Source: a phage. Taken from it: DNA of 6,125 bases. The notes below the pieces were generated by a model. It was not told the DNA's origin. It saw only the letters and a list, made by a program, of their open reading frames with translations, and did no database searches. Where the stretch lies: the sequence record PZ049726.1; one strand, given 5' to 3'. Below, piece after piece: positions 1,744 through 4,220 of this stretch (position 1 is the first letter of the stretch; each line of letters begins with the position of its first letter). Made by a program: the position numbers and the translations under genes.

Positions 1744-2010
1744 TTATTTCAACTTTCCAACTTGATTTTGAAGCATGTATCCTTCTAAATACCACAATCT
1801 ATCTTTAAACCTAGATTTGCATATTTCAGCTCCAAAATCTTCATCGTAGTTAGCTGGATCTACACATGCTGAACTTTCAACTAATGTAAAACCACAAGGT
1901 AATTCCATTACAACAATTGTTATTTTCCCAAACATAGTTGTTACATGAAATTTAGAGTTGTTGTAAATTTCATCTATTTGACTTTGTTTAACTGTTATAT
2001 CAGATTTCAT
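1744..2010 (-). CDS. small phage protein, Gp49 / Sf6 gp66-like (function unknown)
   Basis: 88-aa ORF. The segment LPCGFTLVESSACVDPANYDEDFGAEICKSRFKDRLWYLEGYMLQ fits the pattern I recall for the Phage_gp49_66 family (ACV-P-NFD-EIG ... W-LEGY-L). Start ATG overlaps the upstream stop (TAATG). AGGAGGG RBS lies inside the upstream gene end. Confidence 0.55.
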   Translation of the reverse strand: MKSDITVKQSQIDEIYNNSKFHVTTMFGKITIVVMELPCGFTLVESSACVDPANYDEDFGAEICKSRFKDRLWYLEGYMLQNQVGKLK

Positions 2011-2291
2011 TACTTACACCCTCCTATTTGTATTTTACCTACTTTCACAACAACCTCATTATTTTCATTTAACTCTATTACCGGTTCTTTGTAATGCTCG
2101 AATTCAACTTTAACATTTACAGACTGAATTAACTTTGTTGGTTTGATTTCTTCTGCATCTAACTTTAGAGTTCCAAATTGAGGTATTTTGAAATTTTGAA
2201 TATCTTTAGAAGATATACCTCCATAACCAAAAGATTGCTTGTTCCAATCATCTGTAAGTATTCCTATAACTTGCTTATTAATATTATCCAT
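2010..2291 (-). CDS. hypothetical phage protein (93 aa)
   Basis: ORF with GGAGG 7 nt upstream of the ATG. Its stop overlaps the start of the next gene (TAATG), indicating translational coupling. No recognisable motif. Confidence 0.55.
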   Translation of the reverse strand: MDNINKQVIGILTDDWNKQSFGYGGISSKDIQNFKIPQFGTLKLDAEEIKPTKLIQSVNVKVEFEHYKEPVIELNENNEVVVKVGKIQIGGCK

Positions 2292-2393
2292 AAATCCTCC
2301 ATACGTTTTTTAGTTGTAACGACAACATAGATTAAGCTTAATTTGTTCTTTAACGCCTACAATAGAAGCTAAAAAGGCGCATAAAAAAAGAAC

Positions 2394-2522
2394 TTATAAA
2401 AAGTCCTTACCGTATTCTTTAAACCATTTATCTAGTTTTGCATTACTTTCACCATCTATCCAATTTCTAAGTTCCTCGCCTATTTGGTCGAGTTCTTTTT
2501 CAAGCACTGGTATAGTAGTACA
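2394..2522 (-). pseudogene. relic 3' fragment of a Mu F-like head morphogenesis gene (42 codons plus stop, no start codon)
   Basis: Minus-strand translation CTTIPVLEKELDQIGEELRNWIDGESNAKLDKWFKEYGKDFL* aligns without gaps to the -1-frame tail of the upstream Mu F-like gene (CTTIPVLEKNLDEIGQELKDWVNGKQSPKLDSWFEKYGKYFI*). By hand count that is 26/42 identical residues and about 65% nucleotide identity, with differences concentrated at third codon positions. There is no start codon or RBS of its own. Confidence 0.5.
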
Positions 2523-2532
2523 TATAATAAAA

Positions 2533-2550
2533 GCACCTAATTAAAGGTGC
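2533..2550 (-). terminator. hairpin with downstream U-rich tract, candidate intrinsic terminator of the HNH cassette
   Basis: Perfect inverted repeat GCACCT / AGGTGC (6-bp stem, 6-nt loop). On the minus-strand transcript it is followed by UUUUAUUA. The HNH stop codon (2541-2543) lies in the loop. Confidence 0.35.
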
Positions 2551-3224
2551 ATATCCGATAAATATTTATAAAATTGTTTTCTAGTTGTTTTTTCACCTTT
2601 ATATTTGTTGTGAAATTTATTATGACAACTTACACAAAGAGTTACTCCATTGTCTAAATCTAATCTTAAATCTTTATGAGTATCATAGCTATCCAGATGG
2701 TGTGCCACTAAATTGTATCCATCATCTTTGGTTTTACCACATATCTTGCAAGTATAATCATCTCTTTCTCTAACACTTTTACTCCAAGACTTATATCCAA
2801 ATATTCCACGATTTTCAATTCTATGATTTTCGGATATATTGTTATCATATCTTCCATTGTTTTTACCACTATTAGCTTTAGATATTTTCCTTTTATACTC
2901 TTTCGTCTGCATTACTTTTCTAAGATTATCCCTGCTTTCAGTAGAGTTTAAATAAGTATTGGCTATGTTTTTAGAATTATTTACAAATGCTTCTCTGTCG
3001 GATTTATCTGTATTCTTCCACCAATTATCAAAAGCTTCTTTTCTGCTTCTTGTATTAATTCCTAATTTTCTTAATTGTCTTGATAAATTTCCACTATCAC
3101 AATTAAGTTCTTTAGATATCATAGGTATTGACATTTCTTCATCAATGTAAAGTTTTTTTAATACCTCCGAATATTCCATTCCATATCTTTCTTCAACTTC
3201 GATCATTCTCTTAGATTTTCTCAC
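2541..3224 (-). CDS. HNH family homing endonuclease with N-terminal helix-turn-helix-like region
   Basis: C-terminal HNH motif is directly visible: CKICG ... AHH ... DNG ... CVSCHNKFH (Cys-x2-Cys, His-His, Asn, Cys-x2-Cys-His-x3-His). Preferred start is GTG at 3222-3224, with AGGAGG (3231-3236) 6 nt upstream, giving 227 aa. The ORF-track start at 3263 is also GTG but lies upstream of the predicted -10 box. An in-frame ATG at 3204-3206 is an alternative. Confidence 0.8.
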   Translation of the reverse strand: MRKSKRMIEVEERYGMEYSEVLKKLYIDEEMSIPMISKELNCDSGNLSRQLRKLGINTRSRKEAFDNWWKNTDKSDREAFVNNSKNIANTYLNSTESRDNLRKVMQTKEYKRKISKANSGKNNGRYDNNISENHRIENRGIFGYKSWSKSVRERDDYTCKICGKTKDDGYNLVAHHLDSYDTHKDLRLDLDNGVTLCVSCHNKFHNKYKGEKTTRKQFYKYLSDMHL

Positions 3225-3251
3225 AACAAACCTCCTAATGTTTATACTATA

Positions 3252-3280
3252 ATTATAGTACACAATCCATTAGGATTCAA
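3252..3280 (-). promoter_or_regulatory. sigma-70 / SigA-like promoter for the HNH gene
   Basis: Minus strand reads TTGAAT (3275-3280), a 17-nt spacer, then TATAAT (3252-3257). It starts 3 nt after the -1-frame Mu F stop and lies about 16 nt upstream of the AGGAGG RBS. Confidence 0.45.
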
Positions 3281-3282
3281 GT

Positions 3283-3438
3283 TTAAATAAAGTATTTCCC
3301 ATACTTTTCAAACCAACTATCAAGCTTCGGACTTTGCTTTCCATTAACCCAGTCTTTCAATTCTTGCCCAATTTCATCAAGATTCTTTTCTAGTACGGGT
3401 ATTGTAGTGCAAAGTCCATTCGGGTGTCCAACGGCAAA
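3283..3438 (-). other. C-terminal coding segment of the Mu F-like gene lying in the -1 frame relative to ORF 3390-4220
   Basis: The -1 frame is open for 52 codons (FAVGHPNGLCTTIPVLEKNLDEIGQELKDWVNGKQSPKLDSWFEKYGKYFI*), ending at TAA 3283-3285. It contains an HPN-x-x-C-T motif resembling the HPNCRC-type C-terminus I recall for Mu F / SPP1 gp7 proteins, and its last 42 codons are homologous to the relic at 2394-2522. Confidence 0.55.
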
Positions 3439-4220
3439 TTATTAACTGAATAAACAACTCCATTCCTACTCCTACTCATACACAATTCACAAGTTCTATG
3501 ACTACCTGAAGTAAGCCATTTAATTCCAGCAACAAACGGATTTCTTTGGCAACTTCTCTTCTGTGCTTGTTGAAAAGTATGATTTATTGCAGTACGGGCA
3601 AGTCTTTGAGCGTTATAATCAACTTGGGTAGAAGCTTTACGATATGTAGTCCTCCATTTCAAAGACTTTCTAGCACTAGGATTCAAATACACTTCCAAGT
3701 CCTTAGCAATTTCATACATAGACTTCTTTTCTGCAATTCCTTGAGCTAGAATATAGTCAATATCCTTTTCAAACTTCTTAGTGCATGCCCATATTCTTTT
3801 GCTTAAGCCTAATCTATCTTTGTAAAGCTTCCCAGACATTATTTCATTAACTGCAGCTTGAGGAACTTTAGCAAACATATCTATAAAGGTATCAGCTAAA
3901 TCTAAGCTAAAGGATTTTTTTATATCGAAGAGCATATTTAGTTGAGTTTCGTTGGCTATATTAGCAATCTCTATTAAATCCTTACTTAGTCTCTTATCAA
4001 TAGAATTAGAGAAAGTTGAAATATCTGTTTGTAAGGATTTTAATACACTTCTTACATATCTTTCGGATAAACTATCCTTTGATACTTTTGAAAGCTTCTT
4101 AGATGTATTTAAGTACATTTGCTTATATATATCTTTTATTTCTCTTTGAAGCTTCTTTGTTAGATGTATCTTTTTCTTATTAGCTTCTAGGCATAACTTT
4201 TCGTATTCTGATTTATTCAT
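3390..4220 (-). CDS. phage head morphogenesis protein, Mu F / SPP1 gp7-like (apparently frameshifted near the 3' end)
   Basis: 276-aa ORF immediately downstream of portal. The segment KWLTSGSHRTCELCMSRSRNGVVYSVNNLP fits the W-x-T ... R ... G-x-V pattern of the Mu F family. The expected following motif is found in the -1 frame, so the intact gene probably ran from 4220 to 3283. No strong Shine-Dalgarno; the start follows the upstream stop by 2 nt. Confidence 0.7.
   Translation of the reverse strand: MNKSEYEKLCLEANKKKIHLTKKLQREIKDIYKQMYLNTSKKLSKVSKDSLSERYVRSVLKSLQTDISTFSNSIDKRLSKDLIEIANIANETQLNMLFDIKKSFSLDLADTFIDMFAKVPQAAVNEIMSGKLYKDRLGLSKRIWACTKKFEKDIDYILAQGIAEKKSMYEIAKDLEVYLNPSARKSLKWRTTYRKASTQVDYNAQRLARTAINHTFQQAQKRSCQRNPFVAGIKWLTSGSHRTCELCMSRSRNGVVYSVNNLPLDTRMDFALQYPY

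What the first reader, a model, noticed from the sequence alone, without database searches (positions are those of the whole stretch)
2526..2552. Hairpin terminator overlapping the HNH stop codon
A perfect 6-bp GC-containing stem (GCACCT/AGGTGC) with a 6-nt loop holds the TAA stop of the HNH gene and is followed by a U-rich tract on the minus-strand transcript. It sits in the middle of an operon whose downstream genes (93-aa ORF, scaffold, capsid) must still be transcribed. It may act as a partial terminator or attenuator, or as an RNA stability element bounding the cassette transcript.
Basis: seen in the sequence. Interest (0 to 1): 0.35.

Follow-up and report, generated by a model that had tools for sequence, protein, structure and literature searches.

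The report
Terminator hairpin ending mobile HNH cassette
The hairpin is real and is most likely the conserved transcription stop signal at the end of a selfish endonuclease gene inserted into a phage head gene. It is ordinary in kind, but the head gene beside it is broken in an unusual way that may need non-standard translation.

Summary
The hairpin is real. On the minus strand it reads GCACCT (2550-2545), UUAAUU, AGGUGC (2538-2533), at -8.6 kcal/mol. UUUUAUUAUA (2532-2523) follows, and the HNH stop codon (2543-2541) lies in the loop. One such motif in 6 kb is no more than shuffles give. Its placement and conservation are not chance: eight of nine diverged lineages of this HNH gene (49-77% identity) keep a stop-in-loop hairpin, seven with a clear U tract, while the arm sequences change together.

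It is best read as the Rho-independent terminator of a free-standing HNH homing-endonuclease cassette. The cassette has its own TTGAAT-17-TATAAT promoter, a Shine-Dalgarno that is masked in read-through RNA, the ORF and this terminator. HNH-less relatives supply the empty site, and homology resumes right after the U tract, so the hairpin is the last element of the inserted DNA. The cassette sits inside a duplicated 3' end of the Mu-F-like minor head gene. Termination itself is untested.

Outside the finding lies something more unusual. Every HNH-bearing genome has the head gene's reading frame broken at one codon (LDHP|xGxC), in seven different ways. Several have matched proline codons flanking a stop, which recalls T4 mobA/gene 60.

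The parts
2533..2550 (-). Stem-loop GCACCU-UUAAUU-AGGUGC. The HNH stop codon UAA (2543-2541) lies in the loop, and the 5' arm is coding (His-Leu codons).
   Evidence: The equivalent hairpin is found in L010, L014, L015-20, L025, L026, L027 and L028.
2523..2532 (-). U-rich tail UUUUAUUAUA directly after the stem. It is the last bases of the inserted DNA.
   Evidence: Homology to the empty-site locus L087 resumes at window 2523/2522 (Wrc 3603).
2541..3224 (-). HNH endonuclease ORF, 227 aa, GTG start. It has HNH and NUMOD3 modules and is a free-standing homing-endonuclease candidate.
   Evidence: P0001 is 100% identical, 227 aa. It is absent from the close relatives L021, L087 and L088.
3231..3236 (-). 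Shine-Dalgarno AGGAGG, 6 nt before the GTG start.
   Evidence: Read from the sequence.
3252..3280 (-). Sigma-70-type promoter of the cassette: TTGAAT, 17 nt, TATAAT.
   Evidence: 10 of 12 matches. TATAAT is invariant in 10 of 10 lineages, and TTGnnn sits at 17-nt spacing in 7 of them, with TTTAAC in L006.
3256..3281 (-). Degenerate second copy of the head-gene target region: CTTGA--ATCCTAATGGATTGTGTACTA, equivalent to L(D)(H)PNGLCT. It overlaps the promoter and is a possible operator.
   Evidence: Compare L087 CTGGATCATCCGAATGGAAAATGTACTA. The function is inferred.
3233..3275 (-). Helix UCCUAAUG (3275-3268) with CAUUAGGA (3240-3233). It masks the Shine-Dalgarno only in RNA that starts upstream of the cassette promoter.
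   Evidence: P(unpaired SD) is 0.13 in the long leader and 0.71 in the own-promoter leader, and 3% of shuffles are as low. Support in relatives is mixed.
3283..3426 (-). 'Tail A': HPNGLCTTIPVLEKNLDEIGQELKDWVNGKQSPKLDSWFEKYGKYFI*. This is the C-terminal part of the minor head protein, in the -1 frame relative to the 276-aa ORF.
   Evidence: It is homologous to the phiCDKH01 minor head C-region. dN/dS is 0.06-0.6 among lineages.
3421..3431 (-). Frame break TTG GAC ACC CGA. It is one base short of Leu-Asp-His-Pro, and sits at the codon that is broken in every HNH-bearing relative.
   Evidence: The intact form CTG GAT CAT CCG AAT GGA is in L087.
3390..4220 (-). Mu-F / SPP1 gp7-like minor head ORF as it stands (276 aa, ends ...LPLDTRMDFALQYPY*).
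2394..2522 (-). 'Tail B': CTTIPVLEKELDQIGEELRNWIDGESNAKLDKWFKEYGKDFL*. This is the displaced original 3' end of the minor head gene, now with no start codon or upstream ORF.
   Evidence: It is 97.8% identical to the L087 gene end plus intergenic region. It is decaying in relatives: fused to HNH in L007-9, degenerate in L028, absent in L010 and L015.

Best explanation
The hairpin plus U tract is the Rho-independent terminator of a free-standing HNH homing-endonuclease cassette. The cassette lies inside a duplicated 3' end of the phage's Mu-F-like minor head gene.

The cassette is a self-contained expression unit. It has a sigma-70-type promoter built on a degenerate copy of the head-gene target sequence. 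It has a Shine-Dalgarno that is free in promoter-proximal transcripts but paired in RNA reading through from the head operon. It has the 227-aa HNH ORF, and a terminator whose 5' arm is the last two sense codons and whose loop holds the stop codon.

Shown: the anatomy, its conservation with co-varying arms, and its position as the last inserted element.

Inferred: RNA polymerase coming from the cassette promoter releases at about 2523-2530. This gives HNH mRNA a defined, hairpin-protected 3' end and shields the downstream head genes from unscheduled transcription. In this window the stem is only 6 bp and the U tract is interrupted, so termination is probably partial and late-operon polymerases can pass. 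Putting the stop in the loop keeps the insert compact. In a host with tight transcription-translation coupling it would also let a ribosome finishing HNH suppress termination.
For: Motif and energy.

It is on the sense strand, at the end of a unit with a promoter-like site 10/12 to consensus at 3280..3252 and a strong SD.

Conservation. W/L004/L006 have GCACCT-TTAATT-AGGTGC. L010 has GAAGAACACCT-TTAA-GGGTGTTTTTT. L014 has AAAGGCACC-TTTAAT-CGGGTGTTTTT. L015-20 and L141 have AACAAAGAAGC-TAAT-TAGCTTCTTTGTT. L025 has AAATACACTC-TTTATA-GGGTGTATTT, with a TAG stop. L026, L027 and L028 have analogous hairpins. All hold the stop in the loop, and 7 of 8 have four or more consecutive T right after the stem. 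The C-terminal residues differ (MHL, EHL, RHL, IHSL, VHS, KQRS), so it is the pairing that is kept and not the peptide.

Swap test. Native 5'/3' combinations average -11.8 kcal/mol, against -5.9 for chimeras between arm types.

The independent scan calls the same element terminator-like in L010 and L015.

Insertion boundary. Window DNA from 2523 downstream is 97.8% identical to the HNH-less locus L087, starting at A|TGTACTACTATACC.

Precedent. T4-family free-standing endonuclease genes carry their own promoters, RBS-masking hairpins and intrinsic terminators. The mobE terminator stops about 30% of transcripts while the next gene has its own promoter (PMC2988022).
Against: There are no RNA data of any kind.

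The stem is short (6 bp, -8.6 kcal/mol) and the tail is UUUUAUUAUA, so it is borderline by classical criteria.

One such motif per 6 kb is what shuffled sequence gives.

In the commonest lineage (L015-20) the U tract is poor (UUAUGUAUCUU), and a second terminator-like hairpin lies 37 nt further on. So the stop-codon hairpin may not be the main release site there.

In L007-9 the hairpin has been deleted and HNH is fused to the remnant tail, so it is dispensable.

No sigma-70-like promoter is predicted between the hairpin and the scaffold gene. An efficient terminator here would therefore be polar on essential genes.

The SD-masking helix is clear in only about 6 of 9 lineages, and RNAalifold on a MAFFT alignment does not recover it.
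Confidence: 0.7

Rival explanations
1. It is a translation-gated attenuator. The stop codon lies in the loop and the 5' arm is coding. A ribosome finishing HNH covers the arm and prevents hairpin formation, so polymerases closely followed by a ribosome read through, and untranslated RNA (late-operon read-through with a masked SD) terminates.
For: The stop-in-loop geometry is conserved in 8 lineages. In E. coli, moving a stop codon to 5 bp before terminator tR2 dropped termination from about 90% to under 10%, and removing translation restored it (PMC4824070). The SD is masked in the long leader.
Against: This logic would terminate exactly the late transcripts that must reach the scaffold and capsid genes. 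In Bacillus, and probably other Firmicutes, RNA polymerase outruns the ribosome (my own knowledge: Johnson et al. 2020, Nature), so ribosome occlusion would rarely apply. Stop codons overlapping terminators are common in compact phage genomes without any regulatory meaning.
Confidence: 0.1
2. It is an RNA 3' stabiliser or processing barrier only. The hairpin does not release polymerase. It blocks 3'-5' exonucleases after cleavage or downstream termination, and so sets the HNH mRNA end and half-life.
For: The hairpin is conserved even where the U tract is poor and a second terminator lies downstream (L015-20). The stem is weak in the window.
Against: Seven of eight lineages have four or more U directly after the stem. 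A pure exonuclease barrier does not need this. A-tract/U-tract extensions of the stem in L010, L014, L025 and L028 are typical of intrinsic terminators.
Confidence: 0.12
3. It is a DNA-level element of the mobile cassette: a palindrome that serves as a binding, nicking or recombination site that defines the insert's end.
For: It lies within 10 bp of the right-hand junction of the insert. It is a perfect palindrome that also folds on the + strand.
Against: The palindrome sequence is not conserved between lineages. Only pairing, stop-in-loop and a strand-specific T tract are kept, and those are RNA-level constraints. The presumptive HNH target is the head-gene site about 900 bp away in the window.
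Confidence: 0.04
4. It is a chance palindrome in AT-rich DNA with no function.
For: The window-wide count (1) does not exceed shuffles (1.5 +/- 1.1).
Against: Eight lineages at 49-77% protein identity keep a hairpin exactly at the stop codon through changes on both arms. All hairpin-only z-scores are between -3.3 and -7.1.
Confidence: 0.03

Closest known systems
Intrinsic terminators and expression controls of T4-family free-standing homing endonuclease genes (mobE, segF, segB, I-TevI; review PMC2988022)
   Same: The endonuclease gene is embedded among essential phage genes and carries its own promoter. An RNA hairpin masks the RBS in long read-through transcripts, with the promoter inside the hairpin. 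An intrinsic terminator of modest strength limits transcription, about 30% at mobE. I-TevI also binds an operator that resembles its homing site and overlaps its promoter, which parallels the target-like sequence under the promoter here.
   Different: In T4 the described terminators lie in the 5' part of mobE and segF, not over the stop codon. The host here is a low-GC Firmicute temperate siphovirus, and the promoter is sigma-70-like rather than a T4 late promoter. Nothing here has been tested experimentally.
T4 mobA / gene 60 cassette (HNH-family endonuclease plus a 50-nt translational bypass that protects against self-cleavage; bioRxiv 10.1101/2022.08.31.505936; PMC5009743)
   Same: An endonuclease gene is inserted in an essential gene. 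A short non-coding lesion sits in the neighbouring coding sequence. That lesion is found in every genome that has the endonuclease and in several that have lost it. In several relatives a stop codon follows a take-off codon directly, with a matching landing codon.
   Different: The lesions here are 1-11 nt, not 50 nt, and are of seven different kinds. This window's version (one base missing) has no matched codons and no stop. Bypassing, cleavage specificity and protection are all inferred. The gene is a head morphogenesis gene, not a topoisomerase.
Endonuclease ORF insertions in mitochondrial genes that bring a replacement 3' gene end (for example Allomyces macrogynus atp6; recalled from memory, Paquin et al. 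1994 PNAS)
   Same: The host gene stays whole because a second copy of its 3' end lies upstream of the inserted endonuclease ORF. The original 3' end is displaced downstream and decays.
   Different: Those ORFs are fused in frame to the host gene and are GIY-YIG or LAGLIDADG enzymes in organelles. Here the HNH has its own promoter, SD and terminator.
Packaging-associated HNH proteins of cos phages (HK97 gp74 type; recalled from memory, Kala et al. 2014 PNAS; PDB 5h0m is the best solved-structure hit)
   Same: It is an HNH protein encoded among terminase, portal and head genes. The catalytic core aligns with 5h0m (E = 2e-5).
   Different: Those genes are a fixed part of the packaging module. 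This one is missing from the closest relatives, carries NUMOD3 and HTH-like DNA-binding modules, and is flanked by a target-gene duplication.

Membership tests
Rho-independent (intrinsic) terminator | G+C-rich stem of at least about 5 bp with a short loop | tested here: met
   6 bp with 4 G-C pairs, 6-nt loop, -8.6 kcal/mol.
Rho-independent (intrinsic) terminator | U-rich tract directly 3' of the stem on the transcribed strand | tested here: met
   UUUUAUUAUA at 2532-2523, with 7 U in 10 and 4 consecutive. No T tract on the + strand.
Rho-independent (intrinsic) terminator | Lies at the 3' end of a transcription unit, in sense orientation | tested here: met
   Promoter-like site 3280-3252, SD 3236-3231, ORF 3224-2541, hairpin 2550-2533.
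Rho-independent (intrinsic) terminator | Pairing conserved among relatives while the sequence changes | tested here: met
   8 of 9 lineages. Native arms average -11.8 kcal/mol against -5.9 for chimeric arms.
Rho-independent (intrinsic) terminator | RNA 3' ends or polymerase release at the U tract | not testable with these tools
   No transcript data are available.
Free-standing homing endonuclease gene | Nuclease domain joined to modular DNA-binding domains | tested here: met
   Pfam HNH (E = 1.7e-8) and NUMOD3 (21.6 bits, cut-off 20.4). The N-terminal HTH-like region is weak. PHROG HNH endonuclease families also match.
Free-standing homing endonuclease gene | Present or absent among closely related genomes, with a definable empty site | tested here: met
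   L087 and L088 have an intact gene and no HNH. L021 has no HNH and an A/B chimeric tail. The junction lies right after the U tract.
Free-standing homing endonuclease gene | The carrier genome's own target site is altered so it escapes cleavage | tested here: inconclusive
   All 10 HNH lineages have the LDHP|xGxC codon broken. None of 50 in-frame alleles has the HNH, and 14 broken alleles lack it. That this codon is the target is inferred.
Free-standing homing endonuclease gene | Site-specific cleavage and unidirectional gene conversion | not testable with these tools
   There are only indirect hints: short mosaic tracts that carry the 6-nt lesion into otherwise intact-type alleles (L054, L071).
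Programmed translational bypass (gene 60 type / stop-hop) | Matched take-off and landing codons flanking the gap, with a stop or slow codon right after take-off | tested here: not met
   This window has TTG GAC ACC CGA, with no stop and no matched pair that keeps the invariant His. The feature is met in relatives: CCT TGA CCT (L007), CCG TGA CCA (L015), CCG TAGTGAAG CCA (L010), CCG TGATAAAT CCA (L028).
Programmed translational bypass (gene 60 type / stop-hop) | Coding sequence after the gap is under purifying selection | tested here: inconclusive
   The tail frame is open in all lineages, and dN/dS is 0.06-0.6. But the lesion can move on short conversion tracts, so it may be young in each lineage.
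Programmed translational bypass (gene 60 type / stop-hop) | A single polypeptide spanning the gap | not testable with these tools
   This needs virion mass spectrometry.
Rfam GP20-b RNA (RF03003), for the neighbouring intergenic element | Score at or above the family's gathering threshold | tested here: not met
   24.2 bits against 36.2 at window 2302-2370(-). L004, L006 and L007 score 24.7-25.9 bits.
Packaging HNH (HK97 gp74 type) | Constant component of the terminase/portal module in related phages | tested here: not met
   Absent in L021, L087, L088, phiCDKH01, phiCD24-1 and TVCOM_ph1.

The most novel reading that the evidence does not exclude
The frame-breaking lesions at the LDHP|xGxC codon of the minor head gene are immunity indels at the HNH enzyme's own target. 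They spread by short gene-conversion tracts. The phage survives them by non-standard decoding: 6-nt and 11-nt Pro-to-Pro hops over stop codons, a +1 CCC-to-CCU slip at CCC UAA, and an as yet unexplained -1 event in this window. That would be a second endonuclease-linked bypass system after T4 mobA/gene 60, and a natural set of in-frame 'stop-hops'. A 2016 review said no natural stop-hop was known (PMC5009743). In that picture the hairpin is the 3' insulator of the mobile unit that drives the whole arrangement.
Probability: 0.3. Interest if true: 0.8.

Novelty: new member of a known kind. Interest (0 to 1): 0.4.

Why it matters
Taken alone, the hairpin is a routine terminator. Its value is as a boundary marker.

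1. It shows that the HNH gene is an autonomous, insulated, mobile expression unit and not part of the head operon. That affects how the region should be annotated. The 276-aa 'minor head' ORF is a truncated call, the 37-codon ORF downstream is a displaced gene end, and the HNH is not a packaging factor.

2. It extends the T4 logic for taming endonuclease genes (own promoter, masked RBS, terminator) to temperate siphoviruses of Peptostreptococcaceae and of the human gut.

3. If the linked frame breaks prove to be decoded, the family would offer many short, natural, sequence-diverse recoding sites in an easily assayed virion protein. They could be tested directly by mass spectrometry.

Tried and rejected
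1. The repeat finder did not report the tail A / tail B repeat, which is about 65-70% identical and below its reach. I found it from the short-ORF translations.

2. Single-protein locus scans with the HNH found nothing in viral or genome collections. The protein database and exact-sequence look-ups were needed instead.

3. A MAFFT alignment of the stop-codon hairpins put the arms out of register. So I did not run pair counting on it and used a 5'/3' arm swap test instead.

4. RNAalifold on the HNH leaders did not recover the SD-masking helix. Per-sequence partition-function tests give only moderate support.

5. I looked for a frameshift stimulator after the window-type -1 break and found no conserved structure.

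6. I considered selenocysteine or an alternative genetic code for the in-frame TGA alleles and rejected both. Sister lineages have true frameshifts at the same codon, and the loci's gene calls show no other interrupted head-module gene of this kind.

7. I rejected a packaging-type HNH (gp74-like) because close relatives lack the gene.

8. Rfam has nothing at the hairpin itself.

9. The metagenome and IMG/VR scans with an HNH profile added only more copies of the L015-type cassette. The claim 'HNH never with an intact site' therefore rests on 10 lineages.

10. No cultured phage in GenBank carries this cassette. The best hits are 33-38% identical.
Full report
**The observation.** Reading the minus strand gives ...GAT ATG CAC CTT TAA TTAGGTGC TTTTATTATA TGT ACT ACT... 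The arms GCACCT (2550-2545) and AGGTGC (2538-2533) pair perfectly around the loop TTAATT (2544-2539). The stop codon of the HNH ORF, TAA at 2543-2541, lies in the loop. The tail TTTTATTATA occupies 2532-2523.

The hairpin alone folds at -8.6 kcal/mol, z = -4.2. In 41 nt it is -9.9 kcal/mol, z = -2.9. In 121 nt nothing larger forms, z = -1.0.

The consensus scan lists it as the only terminator-like site in the window. Shuffled windows give 1.5 +/- 1.1 such sites, so the motif alone is not statistically remarkable. Its position at a stop codon, about 0.004 by my arithmetic from that density, and above all its conservation are what count. On the + strand the palindrome is not followed by T residues.

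**The surroundings.** All real genes run on the minus strand. They are:
- an SPP1-type portal (5811-4405)
- a 60-aa ORF
- a Mu-F/SPP1 gp7-like minor head ORF (4220-3390)
- the HNH ORF
- a 93-aa ORF
- an 88-aa gp49/66-family ORF
- the scaffold (PF06810)
- the major capsid protein

The nearest deposited phages are Terrisporobacter phage TVCOM_ph1 and C. difficile phages phiCDKH01 and phiCD24-1. None has an HNH at this place.

The HNH protein starts at GTG 3224, behind AGGAGG. This matches the 227-aa database entry P0001. It has HNH and NUMOD3 domains.

**A duplicated gene end.** Short-ORF translations showed two similar peptides on either side of the HNH gene. Upstream is ...HPNGLCTTIPVLEKNLDEIGQELKDWVNGKQSPKLDSWFEKYGKYFI* (tail A, 3426-3283). 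Downstream, starting right after the U tract, is CTTIPVLEKELDQIGEELRNWIDGESNAKLDKWFKEYGKDFL* (tail B, 2522-2394). Both are the C-terminal region of the minor head protein, as shown by the uninterrupted phiCDKH01 protein (...LPLEHPLGKCTFEYDIPMSMEDIGKELRSWIDGEENSKLDEWFDEYGLDF...).

Directly after tail A's stop there is a third, partial copy of the same gene segment: CTTGAATCCTAATGGATTGTGTACTA, equivalent to L(D)(H)PNGLCT. It supplies the -35 and -10 boxes of the promoter-like site TTGAAT-17-TATAAT (3280-3252). So the HNH ORF sits inside a second copy of the gene's 3' end.

**The empty site.** A profile of reconstructed minor head proteins retrieved 69 loci.
- L087 (Paraclostridium MAG) and L088 have an intact gene, ...NLPLDHPNGKCTTIPVLEKELDQIGEELRNWIDGESNAKLDKWFKEYGKDFL*, and no HNH.
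- The window from 2523 downstream (tail B plus the intergenic region) is 97.8% identical to L087. The match begins at A|TGTACTACTATACC, right after the U tract.
- L021 is a near-identical prophage without HNH. Its tail is an A/B chimera, as expected from loss of the cassette by recombination between the two tails.

The hairpin and its U tract are therefore the last element of the DNA that distinguishes HNH-bearing genomes from HNH-less ones.

**Conservation of the hairpin.** Homologues of the HNH protein at 49-77% identity were traced to their contigs. All lie directly after a Mu-F-like gene.

Eight of nine lineages have a hairpin with the stop codon in its loop:

| Lineage | Hairpin (5' arm - loop - 3' arm) and following bases |
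|---|---|
| window/L004/L006 | GCACCT-TTAATT-AGGTGC |
| L010 | GAAGAACACCT-TTAA-GGGTGTTTTTT |
| L014 | AAAGGCACC-TTTAAT-CGGGTGTTTTT |
| L015-20, L141 | AACAAAGAAGC-TAAT-TAGCTTCTTTGTT |
| L025 | AAATACACTC-TTTATA-GGGTGTATTT (TAG stop) |
| L026 | CTGCACC-TTTAATTAT-AGGGTGC, then TTTTCTTA |
| L027 | GAGCACC-TTTAATT-AGGTGTT, then TTTATTTT |
| L028 | GAAGTGCACTC-TTAAAA-GTGTGCTTTT |

The last residues of the protein differ (MHL, EHL, RHL, IHSL, VHS, KQRS), while the non-coding 3' arm always matches its own 5' arm. In a swap test, native combinations average -11.8 kcal/mol and chimeras between arm types -5.9. The tool's own scan flags the element in L010 and L015.

There are exceptions. In L007-9 a deletion has removed the hairpin and fused HNH to the end of tail B (...QFDKWFKKYGSEFM*), and a different terminator-like hairpin lies further on. 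In L015-20 the U tract is poor, and a second hairpin, AAGCTC-GAAA-GAGCTT followed by ATTTTT, sits 37 nt downstream.

More distant HNH relatives (L101, L105/106/108) show the same stop-in-loop design. The count is 6 of 28 distant homologues against 16 of 220 control open frames.

**The rest of the cassette.** TATAAT is invariant in all ten lineages. TTGnnn sits 17 nt upstream in seven of them, and L006 has TTTAAC there.

In RNA that starts upstream, the segment just after the -35 box pairs with the Shine-Dalgarno (window: UCCUAAUG 3275-3268 with CAUUAGGA 3240-3233). A transcript starting at the cassette promoter lacks the 5' arm. The probability that the SD is unpaired is 0.13 in the long leader against 0.71 in the own-promoter leader for the window, 0.08 against 0.40 in L014, and 0.18 against 0.89 in L007. 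The effect is weak in L006, L025 and L026, and RNAalifold on a MAFFT alignment does not find the helix.

This is the arrangement described for T4 I-TevI, segB and Aeh1 mobE. I-TevI also represses its own promoter through an operator that resembles its homing site (PMC2988022). The target-like sequence under the promoter here invites the same idea, but that is inference only.

**How the hairpin most likely works.** I read it as the cassette's Rho-independent terminator. It ends transcripts from the cassette promoter, gives HNH mRNA a protected 3' end, and keeps that promoter from driving the downstream head genes.

In this window the stem is short and the U tract is interrupted. Leakiness is therefore likely and would let late-operon polymerases through. 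T4 mobE offers a precedent, with about 30% termination and an unaffected downstream gene.

The stop-in-loop geometry could make termination depend on translation. In E. coli, a stop codon 5 bp before tR2 cut termination from about 90% to under 10% (PMC4824070). In Firmicutes, however, polymerase usually outruns the ribosome (my own knowledge), and such gating would terminate the wrong transcripts. I rank this below simple termination.

A pure stabiliser, a DNA-level site and chance are less likely, for the reasons given under the rivals. No RNA evidence exists, and no promoter is predicted between the hairpin and the scaffold gene. That is the main unresolved tension.

**Outside the finding: the broken head gene.** In the window the 276-aa ORF leaves the conserved frame at TTG GAC ACC CGA (3431-3421). 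This is one base short of Leu-Asp-His-Pro, and it runs into a stop 13 codons later. The conserved HPNGLC motif and tail A continue in the -1 frame.

The same GGACACCC lesion is present in independent assemblies (L004, L005, L014, L021, L026, L027), so it is not a sequencing error.

Every other HNH lineage is broken at the same codon, but differently:

| Lineage | Sequence at the break |
|---|---|
| L006 | CCC T AAC |
| L007-9 | CCT TGA CCT AAT |
| L015-20 | CCG TGA CCA TTA |
| L010-13 | CCG TAGTGAAG CCA AAT |
| L028 | CCG TGATAAAT CCA AAT |
| L025 | CCA TGACA AAC |

In the profile-retrieved sample there were:
- 50 in-frame alleles, none with this HNH
- 18 broken alleles, 4 with the HNH

The hypergeometric p is 0.004, but the loci are not independent.

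Fourteen broken alleles lack the HNH. Some of them carry the 6-nt lesion on a very short tract inside an otherwise intact-type allele (L071, L054). This is the pattern expected from short conversion tracts around a cut site.

Ten HNH-less gut-phage alleles have an in-frame Pro-to-Ile change at the same codon.

The tail frame is open in all lineages, with dN/dS of 0.06-0.6. The mobility of the lesion weakens that argument.

Several forms have a proline codon, an immediate stop, and a second proline codon just before the N/L-G-x-C codons. A hop or +1 slip there would restore exactly the intact protein. That layout matches the synthetic 'stop-hops' and T4 gene 60. In the gene 60 system the bypass lies in every phage with the MobA endonuclease and in some that lost it, and it protects against self-cleavage (PMC5009743; bioRxiv 10.1101/2022.08.31.505936).

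L010, L025 and L028 also have GTG or ATG overlapping the stop in the tail frame. Termination-reinitiation, that is a split gene, is therefore an equally simple reading there.

The window's own -1 form has no recognisable shift site and no conserved downstream structure. It remains unexplained.

**Verdict.** The element is a conserved terminator-type hairpin that closes a mobile HNH cassette. It is a new member of a well-known kind, and its function is inferred from anatomy and comparison, not measured. The more novel matter is the linked, recurrent breakage of the head gene. It deserves its own follow-up.

Noticed in passing
window 3421-3431 (-), with tail A at 3283-3426; relatives L004-L028, L051-L083: The minor head ORF is broken at the same codon (LDHP|xGxC) in every HNH-bearing lineage, in seven different ways: -1 nt, +1, +5, +6 (two versions) and +11 (two versions). 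Several have matched Pro codons flanking a stop. Fourteen broken alleles have no HNH, and no in-frame allele has this HNH.
   Followed up: partly
window 2394-2522 (-) and 3283-3426 (-); L087, L088, L021: There is a diverged direct repeat of the minor head gene's 3' end on both sides of the HNH gene. Tail B is 97.8% identical to the intact gene end of an HNH-less Paraclostridium MAG. L021 has an A/B chimeric tail, as if the cassette had been lost by recombination.
   Followed up: yes
window 3252-3281 (-) and 3233-3275 (-): The HNH promoter (TTGAAT-17-TATAAT) is built on a degenerate third copy of the head-gene target sequence. Its 5' part can pair with the Shine-Dalgarno in read-through RNA only. 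This is a T4-like control layout and a possible autorepression operator.
   Followed up: partly
window 2302-2370 (-); also L004 3666-3734, L006 4186-4254, L007 5789-5857: A conserved intergenic element lies upstream of the scaffold module and gives sub-threshold Rfam GP20-b (RF03003) matches of 24-26 bits against a gathering score of 36.2. An alternative hairpin, GCGCCT (2380-2375) with AGGCGT (2358-2353), shows a C-G to T-A change in L007 and L015.
   Followed up: partly
window 2010-2291 (-): The 93-aa ORF occupies a variable slot. It is absent from L004, L006 and L087, where the 88-aa gp49/66-family ORF or the scaffold follows the intergenic element directly. In L007-9 a 102-aa ORF replaces it.
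   Followed up: no
L057, L061, L063, L064, L067, L072, L074, L076, L086 (minor head gene): Ten HNH-less gut-phage alleles carry Pro-to-Ile (DHILGRC) at the otherwise invariant proline of the HPxGxC motif. This is the same codon that is broken in HNH-bearing phages.
   Followed up: no
L016 571-1125, L017 14-598, L054 4256-5362, L057 5117-5278: Related gut phages carry further endonuclease genes in head and packaging genes. An HNH_3 ORF lies between two terminase fragments. A GIY-YIG ORF lies next to terminase. The major capsid ORF is cut after 53 codons, with a GIY-YIG-like ORF inside the gap, which may be an intron.
   Followed up: no
L101, L105, L106, L108 (distant HNH relatives): HNH genes only 34-39% identical also end with their stop codon in the loop of a terminator-like hairpin (for example AAGGTATC-TAAATAA-GATGCCTT followed by TTTATTTT). 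In L101 the HNH again follows a Mu-F-like gene, here with an intact HxNCR motif.
   Followed up: partly
window 2382-2403 (-): The displaced gene end (tail B), and the intact gene in L087, also place their TAA stop in the loop of a weak hairpin, AAGGAC-UUUUUAUAA-GUUCUU, followed by U7. It falls below the scan's G-C criterion.
   Followed up: no
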